A stretch of DNA of 44,815 nucleotides, taken from contig JAOUFE010000002.1 in NCBI GenBank assembly GCA_029858425.1, positions 1 through 44,815 on the forward strand. The letters run 5' to 3'. The position numbers were made by a program, and so were the translations under genes. The notes under the pieces are model-generated. The model saw only the letters and a program-made list of their open reading frames with translations, had not been told where the DNA came from and did not search any database. This document shows positions 5,797-42,214 of this stretch, piece after piece; the first letter of the stretch is position 1; every line of letters begins with the position of its first letter. Source of the DNA: Spirochaetia bacterium (GTDB lineage Bacteria; Spirochaetota; Leptospiria; Turneriellales; JAOUFE01).

Positions 5797-5876
5797 ATTA
5801 GCGTGTTTTTGGGCGCAAAGCGCCCAAAAACACGCATTTTACCGAATTCTGACGTGAATATCGAAGTTCTTGCCCA
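5797..5876. repeat. Palindromic intergenic repeat, copy A (central hairpin plus one arm; other arm degenerate)
   Basis: GCGTGTTTTTGGGCGC-AAA-GCGCCCAAAAACACGC (5801-5835) is followed by the arm ATTTTACCGAATTCTGACGTGAATATCGAAGTTCTTGCCC. That arm is the reverse complement of the left arm of copy H. Confidence 0.75.
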
Positions 5877-5963
5877 GACCCTTAGAGCTTCATATTCCCA
5901 CCAATTTGCAAAAAATTCTTTTGCACAGAGAATGCTGTTATTTTTATGACAAAGAAATAATTT

Positions 5964-13141: not shown

Positions 13142-13589
13142 GGGTTTTTCTAAAGAGTATTCTTTTCTCATCGGTGGAAATCAAAATTTCCTTTCGCATA
13201 ATAAAACCGTTCTTTTCAAAAAATATTTTTGATCTTGAATTTTCCGGAACAATGTACGTCCAGATTCGGTTTATATTTTTTTCTTTTATTGTATTTTCAA
13301 AATGCCTCAGGAGAATCGATGCATAGCCATTTTTGTAGTATTGAGGACGCGTTGCAATGATGTGTATAAAGGCTTTTGTGCGATTGCACGCGCCATACAG
13401 GTAGCTTACCAGTTCCGAGTCTTTATACAAGGCAAAGGATGAGTCGGCAAACAACAGACTGAAAAGCGCATGATGATACGGACGAATAAACTCTGTTTTG
13501 GAGAGCCAGAACAAATCCAGATTTTGTAAAATTTTCCTGTGCTCTGATAAAGACAGACGCCTGATTTCCAAAGAAGCTTTTATTTGCAA
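13131..13589 (-). CDS. GNAT-family N-acetyltransferase
   Basis: 152-aa ORF with an acetyl-CoA-binding-type segment IIATRPQYYKNGYASILLRHFEN and C-terminal ...FFEKNGF. It starts 11 nt downstream of panD and overlaps the Maf-like start by 11 nt. Confidence 0.7.
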   Translation of the reverse strand: MQIKASLEIRRLSLSEHRKILQNLDLFWLSKTEFIRPYHHALFSLLFADSSFALYKDSELVSYLYGACNRTKAFIHIIATRPQYYKNGYASILLRHFENTIKEKNINRIWTYIVPENSRSKIFFEKNGFIMRKEILISTDEKRILFRKTHER

Positions 13590-13948: not shown

Positions 13949-14080
13949 ATGTTTCAACCCCCCTCCTGAATACAAACAATATATATCCCGGGATTTAAAA
14001 TGGCAATATAGTCATAATTTTATTTCAGGACATCGTGCAAACCCGGATTATTTGCATTTCGGGTCTCTGGCTGTATTTCA

Positions 14081-14145
14081 GAGCTTGGACATGAACCTCA
14101 ATAATCAGATCAAAATGTATTAAAATGCGCGTTCATGCCCAAGCT
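14081..14145. repeat. Palindromic intergenic repeat, copy B (internally deleted: one arm plus both termini, no central hairpin)
   Basis: GAGCTTGGACATGAACCTCAATAATCAGATCAAAATGTATTAAAATGCGCG joins directly to TTCATGCCCAAGCTC. The termini GAGCTTGG(A)CATGAAC / GTTCATGCCCAAGCTC are inverted repeats. A further arm fragment TTTCGAGTTCCTGCC follows at about 14150-14164. Confidence 0.65.
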
Positions 14146-16872: not shown

Positions 16873-17115
16873 GCGTGTTTTTGGGCTGCCTAAAAAGTCG
16901 AAAGTTCACCACGGAGGCGCGGGTGCGTTAGGCAATGCCTGCGCAAGCCATCAGGATGCACGGAGATTTTGATGAACTAACGCCTGAAAAGGCATTTATT
17001 TCGTATTTTCTCCGTGCGCTCCTGTCTTCGTGGTGATATCTTTTTCTTTTTGGACAGCCCCAAGAACACGTCAGTCTAAATCATTCTGACTGAATTTCGA
17101 GTTCATGCCATGCTC
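16873..17115. repeat. Palindromic intergenic repeat, copy C, with a ~165-nt structured insertion in the central hairpin
   Basis: The stem halves GCGTGTTTTTGGGCTG (16873-16888) and CAGCCCCAAGAACACG (17055-17070) are separated by sequence that is itself an imperfect palindrome. The standard arm TCAGTCTAAATCATTCTGACTGAATTTCGAGTTCATGCC follows. Confidence 0.7.
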
Positions 17116-23380: not shown

Positions 23381-23521
23381 ATTACCCTCGCTGAAACTTA
23401 ACAGACAGCCAATATTATATTCACGAAAAACTTATTATTGCAACTCTCTTGTTTTGCAAATATATAAATCAGGATACACCTGCAAGCTTTTACCTGCTCT
23501 TCTATAAAATTGACAGGGGTA

Positions 23522-23655
23522 CTCGAGCATGGGCATGAACCTCCATAATCAGATCAAAATGTATTAAAATGCGTGGTTTTGGGGCGCGAAGCGCCCCAAA
23601 ACCACGTTAATTTATATCATTCTGACTGAATATTGAGGTTTATGCCCATGCTCGA
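23522..23655. repeat. Palindromic intergenic repeat, copy D (full length, best-preserved)
   Basis: Termini CTCGAGCATGGGCATGAACCTC (23522-23543) and GAGGTTTATGCCCATGCTCGA (23635-23655) are inverted repeats (20/21 by my count). The central hairpin is GCGTGGTTTTGGGGCGC-GAA-GCGCCCCAAAACCACG (23571-23606). Confidence 0.9.
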
Positions 23656-23739
23656 ATAATGAAATTGCGAAATGCAAAAAGAAAAATATAAGAGTTGACA
23701 ATACAAATTTTTGATGAATTTTCAATAAAAGGGAAAAAA

Positions 23740-25545: not shown

Positions 25546-25643
25546 AACTTATGGGGGATGTGTGCGCAAGAATTTTTCGTAAACGTGAAAAAAATAATAC
25601 GATGAACGGGACAAGGACGGGAAAGCCCGCGCGATCGTGCCTA

Positions 25644-25687
25644 TGCAGGAACTTCGATATTCAGGTCAGGATGTTGTAAAATACGCG
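25644..25687. repeat. Palindromic intergenic repeat, copy E (single arm only)
   Basis: TGCAGGAACTTCGATATTCAGGTCAGGATGTTGTAAAATACGCG aligns with the left arm of copy H (GAACTTCGGTATTCACGTCAGAATGCAGTAAAATGCGTG). No central hairpin follows. Confidence 0.55.
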
Positions 25688-25839
25688 TTTATTGAAAAAT
25701 TGTAGACGATCCCGACTGAGCATATGATATTAGTTACGAGAATTGGAACAGGAAAAAAATTTCAATGCGGTCGACATGGAAAAGAATACAATTCACACCA
25801 GAGTGGCCGAGCTATCCATCGACGAGGATGGAATTGTGC

Positions 25840-26166: not shown

Positions 26167-28764
26167 TTGAATAATTTTAATACGATGCAGAAAGATCCTG
26201 TAAACGATTCACGAATTGAAAAAATTCTTCATCTGATTACTGAATTTGCTTCGGGTAATCTGGATGCCCGCGAGAAGCCTTCCAATAAAAACGATGACAT
26301 TGAGGGCATCATTGGCGGCTTGAACATGCTGGGCGAAGAACTCAAAGCCTCTACCGTATCCAAAAATTTTCTTGGCAAGATTCTGGATACTATGGTGGAT
26401 GGCCTGATTATTGCCGATTCCGGTTTAATCATACTTGATGTCAATCCTGCCATGGAACTGCTAAGCGGCTATGATGCAAAAGAGCTGGTGGGGAACTCGC
26501 TTGAAAAAATTTTTGGCGACCACGACATGTTTAATTCGCTGTCGGGTCATTACTCTGGAAACGAATATTTTGCCGCGATTGAAACGACCTGTTTATCAAA
26601 GGAAAATATTAAAATACCTGTATCGGTTTCGATTTCCTGCATAAACGATCATGAAAATCTTTCCGATGCATATGTTATTATCAGTCATGATATCAGCGAA
26701 ATCAAAGAAAGAGAATCCCAGATACTTGCCGCCAATCAAAAATTGTCCTCCATTCTGGAAGCCCTGCCCGATTTATTGTTTGAGGTCGATTTAAACGGTC
26801 TTATTCACAACTATTATTCGCCCCATTCAGGAAGGTTTGTTTTGCCCTCCATGGAATTTATATATAAAAACCTGTCCGAGGCTTTGCCAGCTTCGGCTTC
26901 TGCATCAATCATGGAAGCAGTTCGGGCGGCGAATGTTGACGGCTGGTTCGGCGGAAAACAGTTTGAGGTAACGATCGAAAATGCAAATTTATGGTTTGAA
27001 ATTTCTGTAAATCAAATGATTGGGGTACAGAGTCTAAGTCCGCGGTTTATTGTTCTGCTGCGAGACATTACGAGACGCAAGAATATTGAAGATGAATTGC
27101 GCATTGCGGCAGTAACTTTTGAAACCAACGAAGGTATTGTAATTACCGATGCACAAGCCCGGATTATCCGCGTGAACTCGGCTTTTCAGGAAATAACCGG
27201 TTACAAAGCAGAAGATGTAATTGGCAAAAACCCCCGCATAATGAGCTCCGGGCGGCACGACAAGTCGTATTATGCCGACATGTGGAAACAGTTGCAAACA
27301 CGCGGAACATGGGCAGGCGAAATATGGGATCGGCGTAAAAACGGGCAGGTGCATCCAAAGTGGCTGACCATAACCGCCGTAAAAAATCAAAAAGGCGAGA
27401 CCACCCAGTATGTAGGTATTTTTAACGATATGACGGCACGCATCAAGGCCGAAGAAGAAATTCGCAACCTTGCTTTTTACGATACCCTCACAAACCTTCC
27501 CAACCGACGTTTACTTATGGATCGCCTGCGCATGGCTCTTTCTCTGTCTGGTCGCACAAATAATTTTGGGGCAGTATTGTTTTTGGATCTGGACAAATTT
27601 AAAAGTCTAAACGACATGAAGGGTCACGAATACGGGGATAGGTTATTGATTGAAGTCGGGCAACGCATTGTTTCCTGCGTCAGGGAAGTCGATACCGTGG
27701 CAAGACTTGGCGGAGATGAGTTTATAATTTTGATAGAAGAATTGGGTTTGGTTAAAAACTCTGCCATGCAGAAAGCGGCGATGATTGCCGAAAAAATTCG
27801 CAGCGCCCTGGCCTTACCCTATCAGTTTGAAGATTATAAGCACTTTTGTTCCACCAGCATTGGTATATGTTTGTACAAAGGCAGCGAAATAGCTGAAGGA
27901 GTTTTACTTAAATCGGCAGATATGGCCATGTATCAAGCCAAGGAGTCTGGGCGCAATACTGTTCGCTTTTTTGATCCGGATATGCAGCGGGCAGTGGAAA
28001 ACCATGCAGAGCTGGAAGGAAATCTCAGAAATGCCATTGAAAAATCCCAGTTAAAACTGTATTATCAGGTTCAGGTAGACCGCGATTTGCGCCCGATTGG
28101 GGCAGAAGCCCTGATACGATGGGAACATCCCGGTCAGGGATTTATTTCGCCGACGCAATTTATTCCCATTGCCGAAGAAAGCAATTTGATTCTGGACATA
28201 GGTGCGTGGGTACTCCACAATGCATGTCGGCAACTTGCCATATGGAACAATGACGAAAAAAGGCGTCACCTGACACTTTCAATTAATGTGAGCGCCCGGC
28301 AATTTGGACTTCCCGGTTTTGTGGAAAGTATTACCAGCGCTATCCAGGAACATGGCGTTGATCCATCTCGCTTGAAACTTGAGTTAACCGAGCATGTCCT
28401 TCTGAGCGATGTAACAAACGTTGTGGCAAAAATGCATGCCCTTAAAGAGCTCGGTGTATGGTTGTCTATTGATGATTTTGGCACAGGTTATTCTTCCCTG
28501 TCTTATTTGAAGCGCCTCCCTATTCACCAGTTAAAAATAGACCAGAGTTTTGTCAGAGATACAGCTACTGACCCAAATGATGCCATGATGGTGAAAACCA
28601 TTATCAGTCTTGCCCAAAATTTCCATTTAAACGTTATTGCCGAGGGGGTTGAGAACAAAGAGCAGCTTGATTTTCTTGTGCAAAATGGATGTATGGCATA
28701 TCAAGGCTTTTTGTTTGGAAAACCCGTTCCTCTTGCAGATTTTGAGGCGCTTGTAAAAAAATAA
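26167..28764 (+). CDS. PAS/PAC-GGDEF-EAL c-di-GMP signalling protein
   Basis: It has several PAS-like segments (e.g. GIVITDAQARIIRVNSAFQEITGY...GKNPRIMSSG). GGDEF is intact (RLGGDEFIILI) and EAL is intact (EALIRW..., DDFGTGYSSLSYL, QGFLFGKP). The real start may be the ATG at 26185 (MQKDP...). Confidence 0.85.
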   Translation: MNNFNTMQKDPVNDSRIEKILHLITEFASGNLDAREKPSNKNDDIEGIIGGLNMLGEELKASTVSKNFLGKILDTMVDGLIIADSGLIILDVNPAMELLSGYDAKELVGNSLEKIFGDHDMFNSLSGHYSGNEYFAAIETTCLSKENIKIPVSVSISCINDHENLSDAYVIISHDISEIKERESQILAANQKLSSILEALPDLLFEVDLNGLIHNYYSPHSGRFVLPSMEFIYKNLSEALPASASASIMEAVRAANVDGWFGGKQFEVTIENANLWFEISVNQMIGVQSLSPRFIVLLRDITRRKNIEDELRIAAVTFETNEGIVITDAQARIIRVNSAFQEITGYKAEDVIGKNPRIMSSGRHDKSYYADMWKQLQTRGTWAGEIWDRRKNGQVHPKWLTITAVKNQKGETTQYVGIFNDMTARIKAEEEIRNLAFYDTLTNLPNRRLLMDRLRMALSLSGRTNNFGAVLFLDLDKFKSLNDMKGHEYGDRLLIEVGQRIVSCVREVDTVARLGGDEFIILIEELGLVKNSAMQKAAMIAEKIRSALALPYQFEDYKHFCSTSIGICLYKGSEIAEGVLLKSADMAMYQAKESGRNTVRFFDPDMQRAVENHAELEGNLRNAIEKSQLKLYYQVQVDRDLRPIGAEALIRWEHPGQGFISPTQFIPIAEESNLILDIGAWVLHNACRQLAIWNNDEKRRHLTLSINVSARQFGLPGFVESITSAIQEHGVDPSRLKLELTEHVLLSDVTNVVAKMHALKELGVWLSIDDFGTGYSSLSYLKRLPIHQLKIDQSFVRDTATDPNDAMMVKTIISLAQNFHLNVIAEGVENKEQLDFLVQNGCMAYQGFLFGKPVPLADFEALVKK

Positions 28765-28837
28765 TGGGGGGATGGGACAAACAGATACCGCGGTGGGCGG
28801 CGTCCGCCGCGTCGCTATTTACCTGCGTAAGCGCCTC

Positions 28838-28958
28838 GGCATGAACCTCAACAATCGGATCAAAATGTATTAAAATGCGCGTTTTTGGGGCGCTTCGCGC
28901 CCCAAAAACGCGTCAGTCTAAATCATTCTGACTGAATTTCGGGGTCCGGCCCAAGCTC
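28838..28958. repeat. Palindromic intergenic repeat, copy F (full length)
   Basis: The order is GGCATGAACCTCAACAATCGGATCAAAATGTATTAAAAT, then hairpin GCGCGTTTTTGGGGCGC-TTC-GCGCCCCAAAAACGCG (28877-28912), then TCAGTCTAAATCATTCTGACTGAATTTCGGGGTCCGGCCCAAGCTC. Confidence 0.9.
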
Positions 28959-28982
28959 TCGTGAGTTTCAGGCACTTAAAAC

Positions 28983-29131
28983 ATGCTCCCAAACTCACGC
29001 AGGTAAATTGAAGAAAGATTCGCTTTTTCCCGAAAATTTCATCCCAAAATGGAAAATCCCTGCAAATTTTATACTCCCTGCCATAAAATCAAATTGGAAC
29101 GCTGGTTTTACCTGCGTGAGTTTGGGAGCAT
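28983..29131. repeat. Perfect 25-bp inverted repeat flanking a 99-bp segment, 65 nt upstream of the giant coiled-coil gene
   Basis: ATGCTCCCAAACTCACGCAGGTAAA (28983-29007) and TTTACCTGCGTGAGTTTGGGAGCAT (29107-29131) are exact reverse complements. Degenerate extra copies are TTTACCTGCGTAAG (28818-28831) and CGTGAGTTTCAGGCAC (about 28960-28975). Confidence 0.85.
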
Positions 29132-29195
29132 TACTTAAAAAAATCTCTATTAAAAAAAGGGTTGTAATTGCAGATTTCTTTATGAAAGTGACATA

Positions 29196-32100
29196 ATGTT
29201 GGAATTATCTATTCCTTTTTTGGCTTCGGTAATTATAACCATCCTGCTTCGCCGTCTTGACAAATCCAGCATTAATCTTCGAAAGTTAAAAACTTTAATT
29301 GAACGCGGGCAGAAGGAGCTGGTAGATATCGCTCTACAGAAAAAAGAAGAATTAAAAGACGCCAGCACCCAACTTGATTTGCTTCTTATCAATTCTGATA
29401 AATATCTTGGCGAACTTAAAAGCGAATTGACCGGTCTCAAAAATACCGTTTCTGAAGTTCAGGGCAGTCGCGCCGGTCTTCTCGAGATGGACGGCGAATT
29501 GCAGTCGCTGGAACTAACCACCAATTCTGTAAAAGATCAGCTTCGATATATAAACGAATCGCTCGATAAAATTGACCAGCATCAAAAGAAAATAAAAAAT
29601 CTGCAGGAATACATAAAAAATGTAGATAACGACGCATCAAAAATGGTAAAAAGTTTTCAAAAAGCCATTGGAGACAAGTCTGAAGAAGTTGTGCGCCTTA
29701 TGGAAGCCAAACTAAACGCAGTATCTTCCGAAACCCACGATTATCAAAAAAAACTTCGCGACGAATTGCTTGAAAAACACGGTATTTTGTCTCACAAGAT
29801 TACCGAGAGCTACAAGGAACTTGAGGGTTCTCTGCGAAATAGCGCTAGGGGGTTAACCGCGACTATCGAAAAAGAAGTCCACAGCCGTTTTTCGATCCTG
29901 GATGATCTGGACGTCCGGATCAGCGCCAATGAAAAATTATTAAGCGTTCATCTTCCGGATCTTGTGGAGCAGCTCAAACTGAAATTTCAGCATGATCTTA
30001 TAGACAGTCAAAATCAATTGGAGAATTTAAATAAATCTATTGTTCGCACCGAAGATGACTTGCGAAAACGTTTTGAAAAAATCCATGCAGAAATTGATGA
30101 AGAGCGGAATACCTTGTTTCAGAATTTTATTGAGGAAACAGACAAGATCAGGGATCAGATTCATTCTCTGGACTATGACACTCTTGCCAAGAAAGATGAA
30201 TTGATTCGTTCTGTCAAAGAAGAAGCGTCCAAAATCCAGGGACAAATTACGTCATTTGAGAAAATATACGATCATGCCCGGGAAAATATTTACAAGCAGG
30301 TCAATGCCCAGGAAGAGGAGCTTGCAAATCATCTGGTCAGACTTCAACTGGCGATTCAATCTTCTCTCGATACGGTCAACCAGGAGTCTGACAGAAAAAA
30401 AACTGAAATTGAACTTTTTCTCGCCGGGGTAATTAAATCTTCAAGCGAACAAATGGCGTCTCTGGAAAAATCTCTTGAACATAAATCAGAAAATCTGGCG
30501 GAAAAGCATAAAGAAAATGAAGAAAAGGTAAGCGATCGCCACAAAAAGTTTGAAAATTTTGTCGCAAGGGCTATGATTCAGGTGGAAGAAACATCGAGGG
30601 AAAAAGACGAAGAGTTTCTGGAAAAAATCAGCCAGTTTGAAAAAAACCTGAAACAAGGCGAGAGCGAAATTGAAAAAAGGCTTGGAAAATTTGAAAAGCT
30701 GATAGAAACTTCTTTGCGCCTGCTTGATTCAAAAGCAGCCGACAAAAAGGATGAACTTTCAGAATTTGTCGATAATGAGTTTGATAAAGTAAAAACCAAA
30801 ATTGATTATTTTCATGAGTTATTTAACGAAAACTCGGGATCCTTGACCGAGCGTGTGCGTGAAAAAGAAGATCAGCTTTTACTTCTTGTTGAAAACTATA
30901 AAAAAGCGGCTGAAAATACCGCTTCTGAAATAAACATTCAATCTGAAAAAGAAAAAGAAAAATTAGGCGAATTTATCACCGGTCAGTTGAATCTGGCAAA
31001 ATCAAAATTTGACTCATTTCAAGGCCTCTATGAAACTGGAATGAATCAGGTTGCCAGTAGCGTGGACAAGGCTCAGAACTATTTCAATGAGCAATTGTCC
31101 GGATTTGAATATAGTGTACAGAATACCATTGATTCGCTTATTCATGAAACCGGAGAACGCAAAAAAGGAGCTGTTGAATTTTTTTCTGAACAATTCAGAC
31201 AAATGGAAACAAAATTCCATGAGCTCAATAAAAATTTTATGGAAAATACGGAAGAATATAACGCCGGAATGAATGAGCGCGAGAATCTTCTAAAAGAAAT
31301 GACTTCCAGGGCGACAGCCTTTATCCAGGAAAGCTCGGCAGCCATTGCTGAGGACGCGCAAAGACAACAGCGCGATTTCTCGCAATCTATTCAGGCAGAA
31401 CTCAAGAATGTTGAAGACAAACTCATAAACTTTCAAAATACATATTCGGAATCCATTCATTCGTTTGAAGACAGCCTTGAAAAAAAAGATCGGGAGCTGG
31501 AATCCAGATTATCTCATATGGAGGATGTTTTGGATTCGTCGATCCGGATGCTGAATGAAGAGTCCGGGAAGCGCCGCGAAGAAATCAGCGCATATGCCGA
31601 TACGGAACTCTCCCGCTTTGATAAAAAAATAGATGAAATAAAAACTATATATGAAAAAAATTCTAACTTTGTAAGCGGTAGTCTGAAAGTCCATGAGTCA
31701 GAAATCAATCAGCTGGTAGATAATTTCAGGGACATTGTACATGCTTCGGTTCAACAAATTGCCGATGAAGCCGAAGCCAGGAAAGACGAGATACAGGGCT
31801 ATACGGCAGACCAGTTCGACGCACTTCAAAGTAAAATTGAAACTTTTAACAAGATCGTCAACGAGGGTTCCGAAAATTTCCAGGAAACTGTCCATTCGTC
31901 AACAGAGGGTCTGGAAAGCAAGGTTTCCGGAATTGAGGAAGAAATAAAAAAAGTTTTTGAGAGTATTCATGCTGAAAGTCAAAAACACAAAAAAGAATTA
32001 AGTGATTTAATTTCAAAAGAAATTAAAGTAATAGATGACCGACTGGAAGACTTTGCAAAACTTTATCAAACATCCGAAAATTCGATTGAGGAGAATTTTG

Positions 32101-34742
32101 ACACGCACCAGGAAAGCCTGATGGAAACGATAAAAGTTATTCAGCAGACGATTGCCGTTTCAATTCAGGAAATTCACGACGAGTCAGACAGGAAAAAAGC
32201 AGAAATTCACAAATATGCGCAATCCGAAAGTGCTGAATTAAATGCAAAAATTTCAGAACTGGACAATGTATTTAACCGGGCGATAGAAGAAATTAAAGCA
32301 AAAGTCCGGGAAAATGATACCCAGATGGAAATCGAGAAAGGATCTCTTGAGAAATCAATTCGCAGCGCAATTGATCAGGTGTTTGACGAGAGCGAAGACC
32401 GAAAAAATGAATTTATAAAATCTGCCGAAGAAGAACTCGGAAAGTTTCATGAAAAAATGGGCTCCTTTCAGTCGGTATACAACGAGAGTATTGAGAACAT
32501 ACGCAAGAAATCTGAAATGGCTGCCGATGAGGTGAACGGACTTATTTCGGGTTTAAATACTGTCATTGATAATGCCATGGCGAAGTTTGAAAATCTTGGC
32601 TCCGAGGAAATGGAAGAATTGCAGGTTGAGATTAACAAGGCCGTTGAATCTGTACAGAAACGTGCTGAAGAAGTATTTCAGGAATCGTACGATCAGTTTG
32701 TTTTTGATGTCAAGGAATTTCGGGAAGAGTTTAATCGTGTTCAAAATCAAATTGAATCTCTGGAGTCCGTCAGCGAAGAGCGCTATAAACAATTAAATAA
32801 CGAAATTATCGATGTAAAATCCAAAATCCAGGACAACCTTTCTTCCTATGTTCAGCAGATCAAGAAATCGGCAAAAGATTTAACCGAAGTTTTTGAAAAG
32901 GATTTATCCGGGAAGCTTTCCTATGTATCGAAACAAATTGAAAGCCTTGAGGGGGAGATTGAAACTCTGCGAAACAGGTCAGTAGAGGAAATTGAAGGCA
33001 AGGTTTCCCCGCTTTACAGTAAACTGGGAAATATCGAAAAAAATCTGCTTGAATCGCAAAAACATTTAATGGATAAATGGAGCGAGGAAACAGCCCAGGT
33101 AATGAAAAAAATTTCAGAAAAGGAAATTTTATTTTCCCAGTCAGCCGAAAAGTGGGAAACACAATTTGAAGCCATGACCCGCAATGCGCGCGATAGCGTT
33201 CACAAAGGTTTTGTAGATCTCGAGAAAAAGCGTACGGATCTTCTGGACAGTTTTGACAGCACAATAAATCAAAAAATGTCCGATGTCGAAAGATTTTCCG
33301 GAGAATGGTCGGAAAAAAATGAAAAAACTCTTTCCGAATTAATATCGTCCTTTAAGTTAAAAATGCAGGAAAAAGAAGATTCCGCGTTTGATAAAATGCA
33401 GCAAATGTCGGCCAGGTTTGGCGAAATAAAAAAAGAAATTCAGACCAGACATGACTCGGTGCTGGAAGTACTACAGGCCGAGAAATCAAGTCTTGAAAAA
33501 GAGATGAAGCAATTAAGCGAAAAGCAATTGCAGCTCTTTAATATGGAAATGGACGGGCGCATTGAGAAAACAGCAGAGATGATGCAGACAAGTTCAGACG
33601 CCACCATTGCAAAAATTGAAAAAGAGATTTCGGGCTTAAGATCAGAGTTTAAGGAAATTGAGGAATCAACCCGCGAAATGATAGCAAGTTTTACGTTTGA
33701 TAAAAAAGAATTGTTTAACAAAATTGATAAAGAAACAAAACTGACAGCAAAAGAAATAATGGGTGTTCAAGAGGCCTTTAACCGACTGAAAGATGAAATG
33801 AAAATTCTGGATAAGGCTGAAAAGAGTACCGAAAAGGTAAGAAATGTTGTCAAGATTCTTGAAGACAAACTAAACGCTGCCGAAGGCAAAAGCGCTGAAA
33901 TTCAGGATATTTTTCGCCGCGTCGATGAACTTAAAGAAATGCGCCTGAAACTGGATGCGGAATTAATGATGCTTGCCCAAAAAAGGGAAAAGGTCGACAA
34001 ACTGGAAGACCAGCTCTCGCTTATTTTAAATCTGCGTGATGAAATTGAAGAAAAAGGCGAACAGCTTGATATGGTAAAAAGCAAGGTGCAAGATATTATT
34101 GGCGCCCAGGAACAGGTAGATGTATATCGAAGCCGCCTTGATAATATTCTCGAAGAATTTGTTCAGCAGCATACGCTTGTGGAAAATGTTCTTGGTACTA
34201 TTTCAGGTCACCAGAAATCCGTTGATGAAATTAGCGGGCGCATGGAAGCCTTAAACGGCACGGTCAAGGTTGTCGATGAAAGATCCAGGTTGTTAAAAGA
34301 CCATATGGATTCTCTTGAAGTAAAAATGGAATCTCTAAAAAAACACGAAACAGAAATTGTCGATGTTAAAAATAAATTTCTCGAGATTGAAGACTTGATC
34401 CAGGACATTGAAAATCGTAAAAAGCAAATTGATACTTTGCGCAAGCGTTTCGAGGAAATGAGAATCTCCATGAATGACAGCGTTATTTCCATAGAAAAAA
34501 TTGAACACAATGCCGAAACAAAAGTAAAACAGCTCACCGACCTGATTAATGCTTCGGAATATACAGAAAAAATCACTTCAAAGGTATCCGGGAAAGTGGC
34601 TCCCCAAAAAATAGGCGTCGACAAGAAAAATATGATTATTCGGCTTGGGGAAATGGGATGGTCTGCAGATGAAATTGCTTCAAAAATTAATATGGATTTA
34701 ACTTCCATTGAAACAATTCTTTCAACATCTATCCGCCAATAG
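29196..34742 (+). CDS. Giant (1848 aa) membrane-anchored coiled-coil repeat protein with a small C-terminal HTH-like domain
   Basis: It is one uninterrupted ORF. It has an N-terminal TM helix (IPFLASVIITILLRRL) and over 1700 aa of E/K/L/I/S-rich helical sequence. A motif of the form (D/E)ES..RK.E(I/F)..(Y/F)......L...(K)(I/L)..F...(Y/F) recurs about every 69 residues. The last ~35 aa are MIIRLGEMGWSADEIASKINMDLTSIETILS. Confidence 0.8.
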   Translation: MLELSIPFLASVIITILLRRLDKSSINLRKLKTLIERGQKELVDIALQKKEELKDASTQLDLLLINSDKYLGELKSELTGLKNTVSEVQGSRAGLLEMDGELQSLELTTNSVKDQLRYINESLDKIDQHQKKIKNLQEYIKNVDNDASKMVKSFQKAIGDKSEEVVRLMEAKLNAVSSETHDYQKKLRDELLEKHGILSHKITESYKELEGSLRNSARGLTATIEKEVHSRFSILDDLDVRISANEKLLSVHLPDLVEQLKLKFQHDLIDSQNQLENLNKSIVRTEDDLRKRFEKIHAEIDEERNTLFQNFIEETDKIRDQIHSLDYDTLAKKDELIRSVKEEASKIQGQITSFEKIYDHARENIYKQVNAQEEELANHLVRLQLAIQSSLDTVNQESDRKKTEIELFLAGVIKSSSEQMASLEKSLEHKSENLAEKHKENEEKVSDRHKKFENFVARAMIQVEETSREKDEEFLEKISQFEKNLKQGESEIEKRLGKFEKLIETSLRLLDSKAADKKDELSEFVDNEFDKVKTKIDYFHELFNENSGSLTERVREKEDQLLLLVENYKKAAENTASEINIQSEKEKEKLGEFITGQLNLAKSKFDSFQGLYETGMNQVASSVDKAQNYFNEQLSGFEYSVQNTIDSLIHETGERKKGAVEFFSEQFRQMETKFHELNKNFMENTEEYNAGMNERENLLKEMTSRATAFIQESSAAIAEDAQRQQRDFSQSIQAELKNVEDKLINFQNTYSESIHSFEDSLEKKDRELESRLSHMEDVLDSSIRMLNEESGKRREEISAYADTELSRFDKKIDEIKTIYEKNSNFVSGSLKVHESEINQLVDNFRDIVHASVQQIADEAEARKDEIQGYTADQFDALQSKIETFNKIVNEGSENFQETVHSSTEGLESKVSGIEEEIKKVFESIHAESQKHKKELSDLISKEIKVIDDRLEDFAKLYQTSENSIEENFDTHQESLMETIKVIQQTIAVSIQEIHDESDRKKAEIHKYAQSESAELNAKISELDNVFNRAIEEIKAKVRENDTQMEIEKGSLEKSIRSAIDQVFDESEDRKNEFIKSAEEELGKFHEKMGSFQSVYNESIENIRKKSEMAADEVNGLISGLNTVIDNAMAKFENLGSEEMEELQVEINKAVESVQKRAEEVFQESYDQFVFDVKEFREEFNRVQNQIESLESVSEERYKQLNNEIIDVKSKIQDNLSSYVQQIKKSAKDLTEVFEKDLSGKLSYVSKQIESLEGEIETLRNRSVEEIEGKVSPLYSKLGNIEKNLLESQKHLMDKWSEETAQVMKKISEKEILFSQSAEKWETQFEAMTRNARDSVHKGFVDLEKKRTDLLDSFDSTINQKMSDVERFSGEWSEKNEKTLSELISSFKLKMQEKEDSAFDKMQQMSARFGEIKKEIQTRHDSVLEVLQAEKSSLEKEMKQLSEKQLQLFNMEMDGRIEKTAEMMQTSSDATIAKIEKEISGLRSEFKEIEESTREMIASFTFDKKELFNKIDKETKLTAKEIMGVQEAFNRLKDEMKILDKAEKSTEKVRNVVKILEDKLNAAEGKSAEIQDIFRRVDELKEMRLKLDAELMMLAQKREKVDKLEDQLSLILNLRDEIEEKGEQLDMVKSKVQDIIGAQEQVDVYRSRLDNILEEFVQQHTLVENVLGTISGHQKSVDEISGRMEALNGTVKVVDERSRLLKDHMDSLEVKMESLKKHETEIVDVKNKFLEIEDLIQDIENRKKQIDTLRKRFEEMRISMNDSVISIEKIEHNAETKVKQLTDLINASEYTEKITSKVSGKVAPQKIGVDKKNMIIRLGEMGWSADEIASKINMDLTSIETILSTSIRQ

Positions 34743-34750
34743 AGCCTGGA

Positions 34751-34797
34751 CTGATTTAAATCATTCTCACTAAATTTTGAGTTCATGCCCAAAAGCT
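34751..34797. repeat. Palindromic intergenic repeat, copy G (single arm only)
   Basis: CTGATTTAAATCATTCTCACTAAATTTTGAGTTCATGCCCAAAAGCT matches the right arm of copies C, F and H. It begins 9 nt after the giant gene's stop. Confidence 0.6.
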
Positions 34798-36604: not shown

Positions 36605-37063
36605 ATGAATACATCAATAATGGAAAAATTGCACCTGGAACAGGTATCAAAACCCTTAAACGTTCACGTCGGGGATACCGTCAAGGTACATTATCGCATC
36701 AAAGAAGGTAATAAAGAGCGAATCCAGGCATACGAAGGAATTGTAATTGCCATTCGCAATCAAGGCGCTGGCAAGTCCATTGTTGTACGGCGTGTTAGTT
36801 ATGATGTAGGCGTTGAGAGAATTTTCCCCATTTATAGTCCGACCGTAGAAAAAATTGAAAAAGTAAGAAGCAGCAAAATCAGAAGATCAAAGCTCTACTT
36901 TCAGCGAAAACGAGCAGGAAAAGAAAGCCGTTTGACTGAAATTAAAAAATCAAAAAAAACAGACTCTGTGTTTGATAAAGCTGAGAAAAGAAGAAGCTCT
37001 GCGCCAAAAACAGAAATTGCTGCCGTTGAAGCACTGGCAACTGAAACTCCTGCTGCAAATTAA
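36605..37063 (+). CDS. rplS: 50S ribosomal protein L19 with a ~40-aa basic/Ala-rich C-terminal extension
   Basis: VGDTVKVHYRIKEGNKERIQAYEGIVIAIRNQGAGKSIVVRRVSYDVGVERIFPIYSPTVEKIEKVR..K.RRSKLYF is the canonical L19 core. GGAGA precedes the ATG. Confidence 0.9.
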   Translation: MNTSIMEKLHLEQVSKPLNVHVGDTVKVHYRIKEGNKERIQAYEGIVIAIRNQGAGKSIVVRRVSYDVGVERIFPIYSPTVEKIEKVRSSKIRRSKLYFQRKRAGKESRLTEIKKSKKTDSVFDKAEKRRSSAPKTEIAAVEALATETPAAN

Positions 37064-38543: not shown

Positions 38544-39533
38544 TCACCAGATATCGATAACCTCTTTTAGTGGGTCCGCTCCTGCAATCTTTTTTTGATC
38601 AACCAGCCATTCATAGGAAAAAACCTGGTTTCTTCCATGTTCTTTTCCATAATACAATGCCTGGTCGGCTTTTTTTAGAGTATAAAATATATTTAGTGGA
38701 TAATCAATTGCAGTATAACCTATGCTTATGGTGAGTGTTTGTATCTGTGGAAATGATGAATTCTGGATGGTTGTTCGGAGGCGTTCGGCAGCATGAAAAA
38801 CATTTCTATGGGTAGCTTCCAGGGTTAGAATAACAAACTCTTCTCCGCCTATTCTAAAAATCGTATCCTGTGCGCGAATGTTTTCTTTCAGGATTCTGGA
38901 AAACAAGATGAGAACTTCATCTCCAATCATGTGGCCAAAACTATCATTAATTTTTTTAAAAAAATCAATATCTACAAGAATCAGAAAATCCTGTTTCCCG
39001 TAATCGTAGTTCGGATCTTGCAATGTGTTGACTTTTCGATCAAAGGCCCGCCGATTATAAAGGTTTGTTAAAAAATCCCTCTCGTTAGATCGTATTGCGT
39101 AGTAAAAATTAATGAATATATTAAAAAATACAGGGGTAACCGGATCCGGATGTTCGATTATTTCGTTAATCTGGATTTTAATTATATATTGCATTTCTCT
39201 TTCAAAACTTAAAGGAAAAATATAAGTGGTCATATGCCCTGTTTTTGAAATATCGGATATTCCACTCGAAAAGCATTCATTTAGGTCGGGATGATCAAGC
39301 AACAATTCCTCGGCGGAATTTTTTTCGAACATATTTATCAGGGTGATGATTGCATGTTTGTTTTTTTGATGCGGGAATTTTCTTTTAAAATTTACCTTAT
39401 AGTAATATAATTTAATATCCGGAAATATTTCGGCCAAAACTTTTGAAGACTCCCTGAAAAGGCTGATTTCATCTTCGCTCTTGCTTAATATTTCAAGAGC
39501 CTTCCATAACTCTAACCATTTGATTTTATCCAT
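38544..39533 (-). CDS. Diguanylate cyclase (GGDEF domain) with an uncharacterised N-terminal domain
   Basis: DFLTNLYNRRAF..., ILVDIDFFKKINDSFGHMIGDEVL..., RIGGEEFVIL (GGEEF active site), ADQALYYGKEHGRNQV. Confidence 0.8.
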   Translation of the reverse strand: MDKIKWLELWKALEILSKSEDEISLFRESSKVLAEIFPDIKLYYYKVNFKRKFPHQKNKHAIITLINMFEKNSAEELLLDHPDLNECFSSGISDISKTGHMTTYIFPLSFEREMQYIIKIQINEIIEHPDPVTPVFFNIFINFYYAIRSNERDFLTNLYNRRAFDRKVNTLQDPNYDYGKQDFLILVDIDFFKKINDSFGHMIGDEVLILFSRILKENIRAQDTIFRIGGEEFVILTLEATHRNVFHAAERLRTTIQNSSFPQIQTLTISIGYTAIDYPLNIFYTLKKADQALYYGKEHGRNQVFSYEWLVDQKKIAGADPLKEVIDIW

Positions 39534-40048: not shown

Positions 40049-40184
40049 CCCAAGCTCAATAGCGCCCCCAGAACTTCGGTATTCACGTCAGAATGCAGTA
40101 AAATGCGTGGTTTTGGGGCGCGAAGCGCCCCAAAACCACGCTAATTTAAATCATTCTGGTTGAATCTTGAGCTTCATGCCCAGG
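40049..40184. repeat. Palindromic intergenic repeat, copy H (full length)
   Basis: The hairpin GCGTGGTTTTGGGGCGC-GAA-GCGCCCCAAAACCACGC (40105-40141) is identical to copy D's. The arms are GAACTTCGGTATTCACGTCAGAATGCAGTAAAAT and TAATTTAAATCATTCTGGTTGAATCTTGAGCTTCATGCCCAGG. Confidence 0.9.
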
Positions 40185-40280
40185 CACAAGAATTATACTC
40201 TTTTCTGACATTCGACGAAAAATATTCTTTTCATTTTGAGCAGATCGAAAATTTTATCGTTGAATTCACAAGGAGAAAAT

Positions 40281-42020: not shown

Positions 42021-42138
42021 GGCAGGAACGCGAAATTCCGTCCGAATGATTTTGAGTGAAGCAGTTTTGTGGCGATTCGCGCCCCAAAACTGCGCATGTT
42101 TCCGCATTCTCACGTGCATACCAAAGTTCATGCTTGGG
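42021..42138. repeat. Palindromic intergenic repeat, copy I (diverged full-length)
   Basis: The order is GGCAGGAACGCGAAATTCCGTCCGAATGATTTTGAGTGAA, then imperfect hairpin GCAGTTTTGTGGCG-ATTC-GCGCCCCAAAACTGC (42061-42093), then GCATGTTTCCGCATTCTCACGTGCATACCAAAGTTCATGCTTGGG. Confidence 0.7.
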
Positions 42139-42214
42139 CGCCGCCCTGACTTTTTTGCGATTGAGCCAGAAAGAAACTTGCTAATTTTTTTTGTTTTTTT
42201 TCCGAGAATAAACC

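What the first reader, a model, noticed from the sequence alone, without database searches (positions are those of the whole stretch)
29196..34742. 1848-aa membrane-anchored coiled-coil giant with ~69-residue periodicity and a C-terminal HTH-like module
- It is a single ORF of 5.5 kb with one N-terminal TM helix.
- The rest is almost uninterrupted charged helical sequence.
- By hand-indexing, the anchor motif (ESDRKKTEI, TSREKDEEF, SEKEKEKLGEF, TGERKKGAVEF, AQRQQRDFSQS, SGKRREEISAY, AEARKDEIQGY, SQKHKKELSDL, SDRKKAEIHKY, SEDRKNEFIKS, GSEEMEELQVE) recurs at residues ~397, 466, (514), 583, 652, 721, 790, 859, 928, 997, 1066 and 1135.
- That is a 68-70-aa period over at least 10 units (nt ~30380-32800). 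Each unit ends in a conserved K(I/L)..F...(Y/F).
- The extreme C-terminus (nt ~34620-34739; MIIRLGEMGWSADEIASKINMDLTSIETILS) looks like a minimal helix-turn-helix.
- A ruler-like repeat protein tethered to the membrane at one end, with a possible DNA- or protein-binding HTH at the other, would suit a cytoskeletal, chromosome-tethering or cell-pole scaffold role.
- I do not recognise the repeat as a named family. The gene is bracketed by copies F and G of the intergenic repeat.
Basis: partly seen in the sequence, partly recalled or inferred. Interest (0 to 1): 0.7.

Follow-up and report, generated by a model that had tools for sequence, protein, structure and literature searches.

The report
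Giant membrane-anchored spirochete coiled-coil protein
This 1848-residue protein belongs to a spirochete-wide, named but unstudied family (SpiroCoCo): a membrane anchor, a very long straight helical rod, and a small end domain related to that of two known flagellum-assembly factors (SwrB, FipA), which gives a testable lead on how spirochetes organise their internal flagella.

Summary
ORF 29196-34742 (+) encodes 1848 aa with one N-terminal TM helix. It holds a 69-residue repeat (autocorrelation z = 13-18; 12 units, residues 351-1155) and a predicted C-terminal three-helix HTH-fold module.

It is not an orphan. It matches NCBIfam SpiroCoCo_N above its cut-off, and relatives occur across Spirochaetota (339 clusters, about 650-4467 aa).

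The number 69 is not special. The whole rod, residues ~120-1430, carries one phase-coherent hydrophobic seam of period 3.63 (69/19 turns). Other lineages lengthen the rod with units of 29, 40, 58, 80, 127, 153 or 167 residues, all whole numbers of turns.

The C-terminal module is not basic (net charge -1). It is homologous to the C-terminal domain of Bacillus SwrB (DUF6115): hhalign gives 95.7% family-wide and 73% for this clade, against 25% for a sigma-factor HTH control. In Spirochaetia relatives it also resembles the FlhF-binding DUF2802 domain of FipA.

Best reading: an inner-membrane-anchored cytoplasmic rod that presents a SwrB/FipA-type protein-binding module, probably a scaffold or spacer in periplasmic-flagellum biogenesis. 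The architecture is shown; the function is inferred. DNA tethering is less likely, and SMC-like, M-like and apolipoprotein-like readings are rejected.

The parts
29196..34742 (+). Whole gene: 1848-aa SpiroCoCo-family protein (213.7 kDa, pI 5.0)
   Evidence: ORF. NCBIfam hits. Mass and pI.
29199..29258 (+). N-terminal transmembrane anchor (residues ~2-21), predicted N-out/C-in
   Evidence: It is the only hydrophobic segment. There is no basic n-region, E3 is invariant, and RR plus 8 K/R follow it. A helix at 2-21 appears in the AF2 model of the homologue.
29250..29291 (+). Conserved juxtamembrane motif RRLDKSxxNLRKLK (R19, R20, D22, S24, L28, K30 invariant in the clade)
   Evidence: Alignment A1. 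The same R-R/Q-x-D-K/R..N..L.K motif is visible in most of the 143 family representatives listed.
29211..29855 (+). SpiroCoCo_N / LA_3659 domain (residues 6-220)
   Evidence: NF047514 scores 85.6 bits (cut-off 75). NF047516 scores 85.6 bits (cut-off 36). Both.
29553..33485 (+). Non-supercoiled rod: residues ~120-1430 with one phase-coherent hydrophobic seam of period 3.63 (about 195 nm if a continuous helix)
   Evidence: Fourier power is 20 against a shuffle maximum of ~1-1.6, and the phase stays at 212-302 degrees throughout. The seam is about 120 degrees wide and made of bulky hydrophobics.
30246..32660 (+). Array of 12 tandem 69-residue units (residues 351-1155). Nine well-conserved units lie at 535-1155 (nt 30798-32660). 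Consensus: K-I-x-x-F-x-x-x-Y ... E-S-x-K/R-x-K-x-E, with an 11-residue charged window that has no core residue.
33693..34565 (+). Canonical heptad-type coiled coil (residues ~1500-1790, period 3.46) with the family's most conserved helical blocks
   Evidence: SpiroCoCo_C covers residues 1509-1842 at 120.6 bits.
34569..34613 (+). Flexible K/S/G-rich linker (residues ~1792-1806)
   Evidence: pLDDT below 50 for model residues 69-83. Length varies between homologues.
34608..34736 (+). C-terminal three-helix HTH-fold module (residues ~1805-1847; G1821, W1822, E1826-I-A, T1840-I-L), of SwrB/DUF6115 type
   Evidence: - AF2 helices with pLDDT 82-84.
- Foldseek top hits are HTH domains, none significant.
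- hhalign to SwrB: 73% for this clade, 95.7% family-wide.
- DUF6115: E 0.012 for this protein.
28825..28957 (.). Full copy of a ~135-nt palindromic intergenic repeat upstream of the gene
34737..34795 (.). Right half-copy of the same intergenic repeat, overlapping the stop codon

Best explanation
**Shown**
- The gene encodes a member of the spirochete-wide SpiroCoCo family.
- The parts, in order, are: a single N-terminal TM helix; a cytoplasmic all-helical rod made of a short heptad segment; about 1300 residues with an unbroken 3.63-residue (zero-supercoil) hydrophobic seam, including twelve 69-residue (19-turn) units; about 290 residues of heptad coiled coil; a flexible linker; and a ~43-residue three-helix module.
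- That module is homologous to the C-terminal domain of Bacillus SwrB (DUF6115). In Spirochaetia relatives it is also similar to the FlhF-binding DUF2802 domain of FipA.

**Inferred**
- The chains assemble in register into a straight homo-oligomeric bundle anchored in the inner membrane.
- The rod is a length-adjustable spacer. It can only grow by whole numbers of helical turns, which explains the 69-residue unit here and other unit lengths elsewhere.
- The C-terminal module binds a protein partner rather than DNA.
[quoted passage not shown] The protein would then act as a membrane-tethered scaffold or spacer for flagellar biogenesis.
For: **Family membership**
- NF047514 scores 85.6 bits, above its cut-off of 75.
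- The family profile retrieves Leptospira proteins named SpiroCoCo over their full length, E 2.5e-55. BLASTP to WP_086446424.1 gives 2e-22.

**Distribution and length range**
- Found across Spirochaetota, about 650-4467 aa.

**Rod**
- Fourier peak at 3.63 with constant phase. The seam is narrow and made of bulky residues.
- The same period is family-wide, and repeat units are always whole numbers of turns.

**C-terminal module**
- AF2 predicts a three-helix module.
- DUF6115 scores 29.6-32.8 bits, above the gathering score of 27, in 4 of 6 Spirochaetia C-termini scanned. DUF2802 scores 20-31 bits.
- Among 14 full-length Spirochaetia members, 10 match DUF6115 and 8 match DUF2802.
- The only NCBIfam hit of Bacillus SwrB (gene order cheD-sigD-swrB-rpsB) is SpiroCoCo_C, E 3.9e-6.
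- SwrB orthologues match DUF6115 at 19.8-33.9 bits, four of the seven above the gathering score.
- hhalign against SwrB gives 95.7% (E 9e-9) family-wide and 73% (E 3e-5) for this clade. The control against SigD region 4 gives 24.8% and 0.3%.
- The same columns matter functionally in the relatives: FipA G110 and L129 are needed for FlhF binding (PMC11620751), and SwrB L155P is a loss-of-function allele (bioRxiv 10.1101/2021.04.30.442225).

**Context**
- Spirochetes use FlhF and FlhG to pattern polar periplasmic flagella (bioRxiv 10.64898/2026.04.08.717139).
Against: - No experiment exists for any family member. No paper mentions SpiroCoCo or LA_3659.
- This protein's own C-terminus is divergent. 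DUF6115 scores only 16.5 bits (E 0.012), and there is no DUF2802 hit.
- The columns equivalent to FipA E126/L129 and SwrB E152/L155 are Ser and Thr here. T1840 is invariant in this clade.
- Similarity to SwrB is confined to ~40-60 residues. The N-terminal regions are not related (hhalign 3.7%).
- The gene is not next to flagellar genes in the window. It is not next to them in relatives either: recG in Leptospirales, and HAD and grpE-dnaK-dnaJ in Spirochaetia.
- The oligomeric state and the parallel-versus-folded-back topology are not determined. The AF2 model of a 1035-aa homologue is low-confidence (pLDDT 63) and has five helix breaks.
Confidence: 0.5

Rival explanations
1. Membrane-to-nucleoid tether. 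The C-terminal HTH binds chromosomal DNA, and the rod holds or positions the nucleoid relative to the inner membrane or pole, like RacA/DivIVA.
For: - The predicted HTH fold superposes on DNA-binding HTH domains: IstA at 0.5 A over 34 residues, sigma region 4 at 1.2 A over 39, plus resolvase and RcsB.
- One orthologue's C-terminus passes Pfam HTH_23 (31.6 bits against 24.6).
- recG lies downstream on the same strand in 20 of 21 Leptospirales loci.
- The linker is basic.
Against: - The module has net charge -1 here and +0.9 +/- 1.8 across the family. The Sleeping Beauty PAI HTH that it weakly aligns with has +9.
- The third helix has no conserved basic residue and is acidic (GEVELILE) in most of the family.
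- The closest specific relatives, SwrB and FipA, are protein-binding flagellar factors.
- recG linkage is absent in the window and in 80 Spirochaetia loci.
Confidence: 0.12
2. General cytoskeletal, division or shape scaffold unrelated to flagella. Examples of the kind are EzrA (N-terminal TM plus helical repeats that regulate FtsZ) and Scy/FilP (long non-heptad coiled coils that organise the pole). The C-terminal module would then be a generic protein-docking domain.
For: - The topology matches EzrA, and the near-3.63/3.67 periodicity matches Scy/FilP (PMC9858780).
- The family is phylum-wide and its genes lie in housekeeping neighbourhoods.
- If extended, the rod (at least ~145 nm in short members, ~260 nm here) is longer than thin spirochetes are wide (from my own knowledge). 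That would force it to lie along the membrane.
- AF2 helix breaks coincide with the insertion hot spots at profile positions ~116-163 and ~333-345. This is compatible with a folded-back bundle.
Against: - The only specific sequence relationship found outside the family is to two flagellar factors.
- There is no significant match to EzrA, DivIVA or spectrin models.
- The core is poor in Ala, unlike Scy/FilP (PMC9858780).
Confidence: 0.25
3. Apolipoprotein- or perilipin-like amphipathic helix that lies flat on the inner leaflet and coats or shapes the membrane.
For: - Pfam Apolipoprotein matches: 49 bits here and up to 84 bits in relatives.
- A period of 3.63-3.67 suits a helix lying on a surface.
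Against: - All matches fall below the gathering score of 90.
- The hydrophobic face is only about 120 degrees wide. It is 76% bulky hydrophobic at its centre and 7-9% on the far side, as in a coiled-coil core rather than a half-cylinder lipid face.
- Overall content of strong hydrophobics is 30%.
Confidence: 0.05
4. SMC/Rad50-type chromosome ATPase (as several databases annotate relatives), or a secreted or surface M-like fibrillar protein.
For: - Source annotations such as 'chromosome segregation protein SMC' and 'SbcCD ATPase subunit'.
- Weak NCBIfam SMC/Rad50 hits.
Against: - The SMC/Rad50 hits score 36-38 bits against cut-offs of 567-729 and cover coiled coil only.
- There is no Walker A, no ABC signature, no LPXTG, no lipobox and no Cys.
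- There is no signal-peptide n-region, and positive charges follow the TM helix.
Confidence: 0.01

Closest known systems
SpiroCoCo family coiled-coil protein (NCBIfam NF047514 / NF047515; LA_3659 family NF047516), e.g. Leptospira WP_086446424.1
   Same: - N-terminal TM plus RRLDK motif, long rod, and a C-terminal G-W...EIA three-helix module.
- The N-domain model is above its cut-off.
- The family profile aligns end to end.
   Different: - This protein is 650-800 residues longer than the ~1035-1193-aa Turneriella and Leptospira members, because of a 12-unit 69-residue array inserted after residue ~350.
- The C-domain model scores 4.4 bits below its cut-off.
- The family has a name but no published function.
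[quoted passage not shown]
   Same: - Single N-terminal TM helix with a large cytoplasmic C-terminal part.
- A helical, charged middle region.
- A homologous C-terminal module: L..(Q)G(Y/W)S..(E)IA......TE(I/V)EL.L. hhalign gives 95.7% family-wide and 73% for this clade, with a reciprocal SpiroCoCo_C hit.
   Different: - SwrB is 167 aa; this protein is 1848 aa with a ~1750-residue rod.
- There is no similarity in the TM or junction region.
- SwrB E152 and L155 are Ser and Thr here.
- swrB ends the fla/che operon, whereas this gene is not near flagellar genes.
FipA (Pfam DUF2802) of Vibrio, Pseudomonas and Shewanella, the membrane partner that recruits FlhF to the pole (PMC11620751)
   Same: - Short periplasmic N-terminus, TM helix, coiled coil, and a C-terminal domain at the end.
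- Spirochaetia family members match DUF2802 at E 3e-7 to 8e-4 as isolated C-termini; 8 of 14 full-length members match it, best E 9.5e-6.
- Those members keep the G...E..L triad at the spacing of FipA G110/E126/L129. This mapping is my inference from the model coordinates.
   Different: - All DUF2802 matches are below Pfam's gathering score (33.5 bits).
- This protein itself has no DUF2802 hit and has Ser and Thr at the E126 and L129 columns.
- FipA is 163 aa and is encoded next to flhF/flhG.
- FlhF binding is untested here.
Scy / FilP of Streptomyces (long hendecad-based coiled-coil cytoskeletal proteins; PMC9858780, PMC3718342)
   Same: A very long rod (over 1000 residues) with a non-heptad periodicity close to that of an undistorted helix, built from long sequence repeats.
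   Different: - Scy and FilP are soluble, have a DivIVA-like N-terminus, and have Ala-rich cores as dimers.
- This protein is TM-anchored, has bulky core residues (5% Ala) and ends in a SwrB-type module.
EzrA (Bacillus and Staphylococcus division regulator; comparison from my own knowledge)
   Same: N-terminal TM anchor with a large helical-repeat cytoplasmic domain.
   Different: EzrA is built of spectrin-like triple-helix repeats that form an arch. No sequence match was found here, and the seam here is continuous.

Membership tests
SpiroCoCo (NCBIfam) | N-terminal domain model NF047514 (and NF047516, LA_3659 family) at or above the curated cut-off | tested here: met
   85.6 bits against cut-offs of 75 and 36, residues 6-220
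SpiroCoCo (NCBIfam) | C-terminal domain model NF047515 at or above the curated cut-off (125 bits) | tested here: inconclusive
   120.6 bits, E 7e-35, residues 1509-1842 matched to model positions 1-313 of 313. This is 4.4 bits under the cut-off. The isolated last 75 aa score 35.4 bits on model positions 252-313.
SpiroCoCo (NCBIfam) | End-to-end homology with proteins that carry the family name | tested here: met
   The family profile built from this protein's relatives hits the Leptospira cluster P0069 (members named SpiroCoCo) over profile positions 1-1063, E 2.5e-55. BLASTP gives 2e-22.
SwrB / DUF6115 | Pfam PF19610 at or above the gathering score (27 bits) | tested here: not met
   This protein scores 16.5 bits, E 0.012. 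Spirochaetia family members score 29.6-32.8 bits. Five of 10 clade members match at E <= 1.
SwrB / DUF6115 | Profile-profile homology of the C-terminal module to genuine SwrB orthologues | tested here: met
   hhalign gives 95.7% (E 9e-9) family-wide and 73.4% (E 3e-5) for this clade. Controls against SigD give 24.8% and 0.3%. Support for this clade alone is moderate.
SwrB / DUF6115 | Conserved TM histidine and junction motif (L48, F51, L53; KEENEKLI), the region most critical for SwrB activity | tested here: not met
   N-terminal profile against SwrB: probability 3.7%. No His in the TM helix.
SwrB / DUF6115 | Gene at the end of a flagellar (fla/che) operon | tested here: not met
   The neighbours are a PAS-GGDEF-EAL protein, a 229-aa protein of unknown function, an aldo-keto-reductase-like ORF (assigned by eye) and rplS.
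FipA / DUF2802 | Pfam PF10975 at or above the gathering score (33.5 bits) | tested here: not met
   No hit for this protein. Spirochaetia relatives score 20-31 bits as isolated C-termini, and 8 of 14 full-length members match.
FipA / DUF2802 | Invariant G110, E126, L129 (G and L required for FlhF binding) | tested here: not met
   This protein has G1821 conserved, but Ser at +16 and Thr1840 at +19. Spirochaetia relatives keep G, E and L at the same spacing. The column mapping is inferred from model coordinates.
FipA / DUF2802 | Short periplasmic N-terminus, TM helix, cytoplasmic coiled coil, terminal domain | tested here: met
   against the FipA description in PMC11620751
FipA / DUF2802 | Direct interaction with FlhF | not testable with these tools
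   Needs a two-hybrid or pull-down experiment.
DNA-binding HTH domain | Three-helix HTH fold | tested here: met
   AF2 pLDDT 82-84. Superposes on HTH domains at 0.5-1.3 A over 34-39 residues, though Foldseek E >= 0.058. This is a prediction only.
DNA-binding HTH domain | Basic recognition helix or positively charged DNA-binding surface | tested here: not met
   Net charge is -1. The third helix reads LTSIETILS here and GEVELILE in most of the family.
SMC / Rad50 | Walker A/B ATPase head, ABC signature, hinge or zinc hook | tested here: not met
   No such motifs. Scores of 36-38 bits against cut-offs of 567-729.
Scy / FilP-type non-heptad coiled coil | Long rod with periodicity near 3.63-3.67 built of long repeats | tested here: met
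   This is a resemblance in how it works, not homology.
Scy / FilP-type non-heptad coiled coil | DivIVA-like N-terminal motif; Ala-rich core | tested here: not met
   No DivIVA hit. Ala is 5% in every sector of the helix.

The most novel reading that the evidence does not exclude
SpiroCoCo proteins are giant, spirochete-specific relatives of the small flagellar factors SwrB and FipA. Anchored in the inner membrane, their straight rod would act as a molecular ruler or rail. Its length is evolutionarily tunable in whole helical turns, from about 650 to 4467 residues. The rod would set where, relative to the pole or to each other, periplasmic flagellar basal bodies are nucleated or activated, through the C-terminal module binding FlhF or the export gate.
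Probability: 0.15. Interest if true: 0.85.

Novelty: new variant of a known kind. Interest (0 to 1): 0.6.

Why it matters
- Spirochetes place their periplasmic flagellar motors at precise subpolar positions with FlhF and FlhG. No membrane determinant equivalent to FipA has been described for them.
- A phylum-wide protein that carries the SwrB/FipA-type terminal domain on a rod of highly variable length is a concrete candidate. It can be tested with existing genetics and cryo-ET.
- The family is also a notable structural case. A hydrophobic seam with the period of an undistorted helix (3.63) stays in phase for more than 1300 residues here, and for thousands in relatives. Lineage-specific repeats are constrained to whole numbers of turns.
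- The analysis corrects widespread misannotation of these proteins as SMC or SbcC ATPases.

Tried and rejected
- **PDB sequence search.** The whole protein gave only noise, kinesin at E 0.1.
- **Pfam on the whole protein.** Only sub-threshold coiled-coil matches such as Apolipoprotein and Baculo_PEP_C.
- **Locus search with the single protein in genome contigs.** Nothing found.
- **Word-indexed homology search with the 345-aa C-terminal alignment.** It was swamped by low-complexity candidates and gave 3 hits. The search with the 75-aa module returned only contig-end fragments, although their Pfam labels gave the DUF2802/DUF6115 lead.
- **AF2 of a full 1035-aa homologue.** Too low in confidence to decide the topology.
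- **Neighbourhood of the window gene.** It is not conserved with any relative. recG is absent from the window and from Spirochaetia loci.
- **Literature.** No paper mentions SpiroCoCo or LA_3659. My guesses at locus tags upstream of grpE gave one result: T. denticola TDE0626 is not co-transcribed with grpE-dnaK-dnaJ. I could not verify that TDE0626 is a family member, so I do not use it.
- **Taxon names.** Cluster look-ups for diverse representatives were mostly uninformative.
- **Rfam.** No family covers the flanking repeat.
- **N-terminal similarity to SwrB.** Rejected.
- **SMC/Rad50, lipoprotein and LPXTG readings.** Rejected by motif checks.
Full report
**1.

The ORF runs 29196..34742 on the + strand and encodes 1848 aa. 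Residues 1-19 form the only hydrophobic segment (Kyte-Doolittle 1.88). There is no basic n-region before it, E3 is invariant, and RR plus a net-basic stretch follow it. It is therefore an N-out/C-in anchor, not a signal peptide, and the rest of the protein is cytoplasmic. The protein has no Cys, lipobox, LPXTG, Walker A or ABC signature.

BLOSUM autocorrelation peaks at lags 69, 138, 207, 276 and 345, with z = 12-15 against shuffles. Ten anchor motifs (514...1135) share one register; those at 397 and 466 are offset by 21. The K(I/L)..F...(Y/F) motif occurs nine times, at 535+69n.

An HMM of the nine clear units finds three further, untrained copies (351-408, 422-479, 476-533). It also finds the same register in two orthologues.

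The units are ancient. Paralogous units are 17% identical against 8% at random. Orthologous units are 24-59% identical, so the array predates the split from a 63%-identical orthologue.

**2. What the 69 means**

The hydrophobic pattern has a single sharp Fourier peak at 3.63 residues (power 20; shuffle maximum ~1-1.6). Its phase stays within 212-302 degrees from residue ~120 to ~1430. That range extends well beyond the recognisable repeats.

[quoted passage not shown] The helices should pack without supercoiling.
- The two ends of the rod (residues 28-120 and 1500-1790) are ordinary heptad coiled coil, with a period of 3.46-3.5.
- The seam is about 120 degrees wide. It is 76% bulky hydrophobic at its centre and has only 5% Ala. 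This fits a coiled-coil core rather than an apolipoprotein-like lipid face. Because bulky knobs-to-knobs positions are disfavoured in dimers (PMC9858780), it hints at more than two helices per bundle.
Each also has near-invariant K1, F5, Y9 and K53.
- If the helix is continuous, the rod is about 260 nm long, at 10.2 nm per unit.

**3. Family**

NCBIfam gives three relevant hits:

| Model | Score (bits) | Cut-off (bits) |
|---|---|---|
| SpiroCoCo_N | 85.6 | 75 |
| LA_3659 family | 85.6 | 36 |
| SpiroCoCo_C | 120.6 | 125 |

- A profile of 16 relatives, searched against 1.84 billion representatives, finds 339 clusters at E <= 1e-10. Lengths run from about 650 to 4467 aa.
- Named members include Leptospira proteins called "SpiroCoCo family coiled-coil protein", formerly "SMC", and a 4467-aa Spirochaetia protein.
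- Genome scans place relatives in Turneriellaceae and Leptospirales, in Spirochaetaceae, Alkalispirochaeta, Marispirochaeta and Treponema, and in further uncultured Spirochaetota. The scans found 21, 447 and 91 relatives.
- Most listed representatives that are complete at both ends show the TM helix with an R-R/Q-x-D-K/R...N..L.K motif and a C-terminal ...L...G-W...EIA... module.
- No paper mentions the family.

**4. The rod is a length-variable element under a phase constraint**

The 3.63-3.64 peak is family-wide, with power up to 27 in a 4467-aa member. Different lineages have expanded the rod with different units:

| Unit length (residues) | Helical turns |
|---|---|
| 29 | 8 |
| 40 | 11 |
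| 58 | 16 |
| 69 | 19 |
| 80 | 22 |
| 87 | 24 |
| 127 | 35 |
| 153 | 42 |
| 167 | 46 |

Expansions cluster at two sites, profile positions ~116-163 and ~333-345. These coincide with helix breaks in a low-confidence AF2 model of a 1035-aa homologue (pLDDT 63). I cannot decide between an extended in-register parallel bundle and a folded-back antiparallel one.

**5. The C-terminal module**

- AF2 on the last 125 residues gives a long helix, a disordered linker, then three short helices with pLDDT 82-84.
- The top Foldseek matches are all HTH DNA-binding domains: resolvase, RcsB, IstA (0.5 A over 34 residues) and sigma region 4 (1.2 A over 39). None is significant (best E = 0.058).
- One orthologue passes Pfam HTH_23.
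- The module is not basic. Its net charge is -1 here and +0.9 +/- 1.8 across the family. The Sleeping Beauty PAI HTH that it weakly aligns with has +9. Its third helix is LTSIETILS here and GEVELILE in most of the family.

**6. The lead that changes the interpretation**

- C-termini of Spirochaetia members match Pfam DUF6115 above the gathering score (29.6-32.8 bits against 27) in 4 of 6 scanned. They match DUF2802 at 20-31 bits against 33.5. Among 14 full-length members, 10 match DUF6115 and 8 match DUF2802.
- DUF2802 is the FlhF-binding domain of FipA. FipA is a 163-aa protein with a short periplasmic N-terminus, a TM helix, a coiled coil and a C-terminal domain. It recruits FlhF to the pole, and its G110 and L129 are essential for that interaction (PMC11620751).
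- I recalled the Bacillus SwrB sequence from memory and tested it. It retrieves real Bacillus genes lying between sigD and rpsB, after cheD. The mutated residues H13, L48, F51, L53 and L155 described for SwrB match these sequences (bioRxiv 10.1101/2021.04.30.442225).
- These SwrB orthologues match DUF6115 at 19.8-33.9 bits, four of the seven above the gathering score. Their only NCBIfam hit is SpiroCoCo_C, E 3.9e-6.
- hhalign of the SpiroCoCo C-terminal profile against SwrB gives 95.7% (E 9e-9) family-wide and 73.4% (E 3e-5) for this clade. A control against SigD region 4 gives 24.8% and 0.3%.
[quoted passage not shown] Its L155P allele lies in the same column as FipA L129.
- N-terminal regions are not related.

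**7. Caveats for this particular protein**

- Its own module is divergent. DUF6115 scores only 16.5 bits.
- The columns equivalent to SwrB E152/L155 and FipA E126/L129 are Ser and Thr1840. The Thr is invariant in this clade.
- It keeps five of the eight invariant SwrB residues in the module (G, I, A, T and E154; the eight are G136, I142, A143, G149, T151, E152, E154, L155).

**8. Context**

- In 20 of 21 Leptospirales loci, recG lies downstream on the same strand. In 15 of these it is within ~110 bp.
- In Spirochaetia the gene sits between a HAD-like gene (69 of 79 loci) and genes for GrpE-, DnaK- and DnaJ-like proteins (51, 48 and 43 of 79). I identified these by eye from canonical motifs. 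No recG lies within 6 kb in those loci.
- In the window neither linkage exists. The neighbours are a PAS-GGDEF-EAL protein, a 229-aa protein of unknown function, an aldo-keto-reductase-like ORF (assigned by eye) and rplS.
- A repeat element flanks the gene on both sides. This is compatible with local rearrangement.
- Synteny therefore gives no consistent functional signal.

**9. Verdict**

Shown: the architecture, membership of the SpiroCoCo family, the phase-constrained variable rod, and homology of the terminal module to SwrB, with similarity to FipA in relatives.

Inferred: a membrane-tethered scaffold or spacer whose terminal module binds a protein of the flagellar assembly or placement machinery. 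Spirochetes do use FlhF and FlhG for polar flagellar patterning (bioRxiv 10.64898/2026.04.08.717139).

A DNA-tethering role is possible but disfavoured. A flagellum-independent cytoskeletal role remains a serious rival. The SMC-like, surface-protein and apolipoprotein-like readings are rejected.

The finding is a new, giant variant of a known kind of protein, inside a named but uncharacterised family. Interest is moderate to high because it yields direct experiments.

Noticed in passing
window 23515-23665, 28825-28957, 40060-40195, 42025-42140 (full copies); 5800-5880, 14070-14140, 25630-25695, 17057-17109, 34737-34795 (half copies): A ~135-nt palindromic intergenic element. Two arms flank a GC-rich hairpin (TTTTGGGGCGC....GCGCCCCAAAA) that resembles a bidirectional terminator. 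At least nine full or half copies lie in 45 kb, and no Rfam family matches. It looks like a REP- or MITE-like repeat and may have mediated the loss of the recG linkage seen in relatives.
   Followed up: partly
window 28976-29007 / 29107-29138, and ORF 29008-29196: A 32-nt inverted repeat (91% complementary, 99-nt loop), unique in the window, sits in the leader of the giant gene. A 62-aa ORF inside it ends in TAATG, overlapping the giant's start codon. This could be a regulatory hairpin or translational coupling, or it could be chance.
   Followed up: partly
loci L002-L021 (e.g. L002 16080-18134): recG (NCBIfam equivalog, 751 bits) lies immediately downstream of the SpiroCoCo gene on the same strand in almost all Leptospirales genomes, sometimes overlapping it. 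The linkage is absent from the window and from Spirochaetia.
   Followed up: yes
loci L022-L101: In Spirochaetia the family gene lies in a conserved block. In order: a TPR-like gene, ExbB/TolQ-like, ExbD-like, a 555-aa ORF, a HAD-like gene, the SpiroCoCo gene, then grpE-, dnaK- and dnaJ-like genes. Neighbours were identified by eye from canonical motifs.
   Followed up: partly
proteins P0094 (4467 aa), P0176 (4002 aa), P0135 (3338 aa), P0050 (2728 aa; 127-residue repeat, z = 58): Some family members are extreme giants with very regular repeats. P0050 has a 127-residue (35-turn) unit repeated with far higher similarity than the units in this window, which suggests a recent expansion.
   Followed up: partly
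locus L185 3001-3501 (Bacillus spizizenii swrB): Bacillus SwrB, described as having a poorly conserved cytoplasmic domain, has an invariant C-terminal HTH-like module. That module is shared with Pfam DUF6115, the spirochete SpiroCoCo family and apparently FipA/DUF2802. The papers I read make no mention of this three-family link.
   Followed up: partly
window 34208-34792 (-): A 194-aa antisense ORF inside the 3' end of the gene gives tblastn matches in relatives. This is an artefact of lying opposite the conserved C-terminal coding region, not a gene.
   Followed up: yes
window 36605-37063 (+): The rplS-like (ribosomal protein L19) ORF, assigned by eye, encodes 152 aa. It has a C-terminal K/S/A-rich tail of about 35 residues beyond the usual length of this protein.
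   Followed up: no
window 26167-28764 (+) and 38544-39533 (-): Two c-di-GMP signalling proteins lie near the gene: a PAS-GGDEF-EAL protein directly upstream and a GGDEF protein 4 kb downstream. A 627-aa protein with an MptE-like domain (PF01973) lies at 11288-13171 (-).
   Followed up: no
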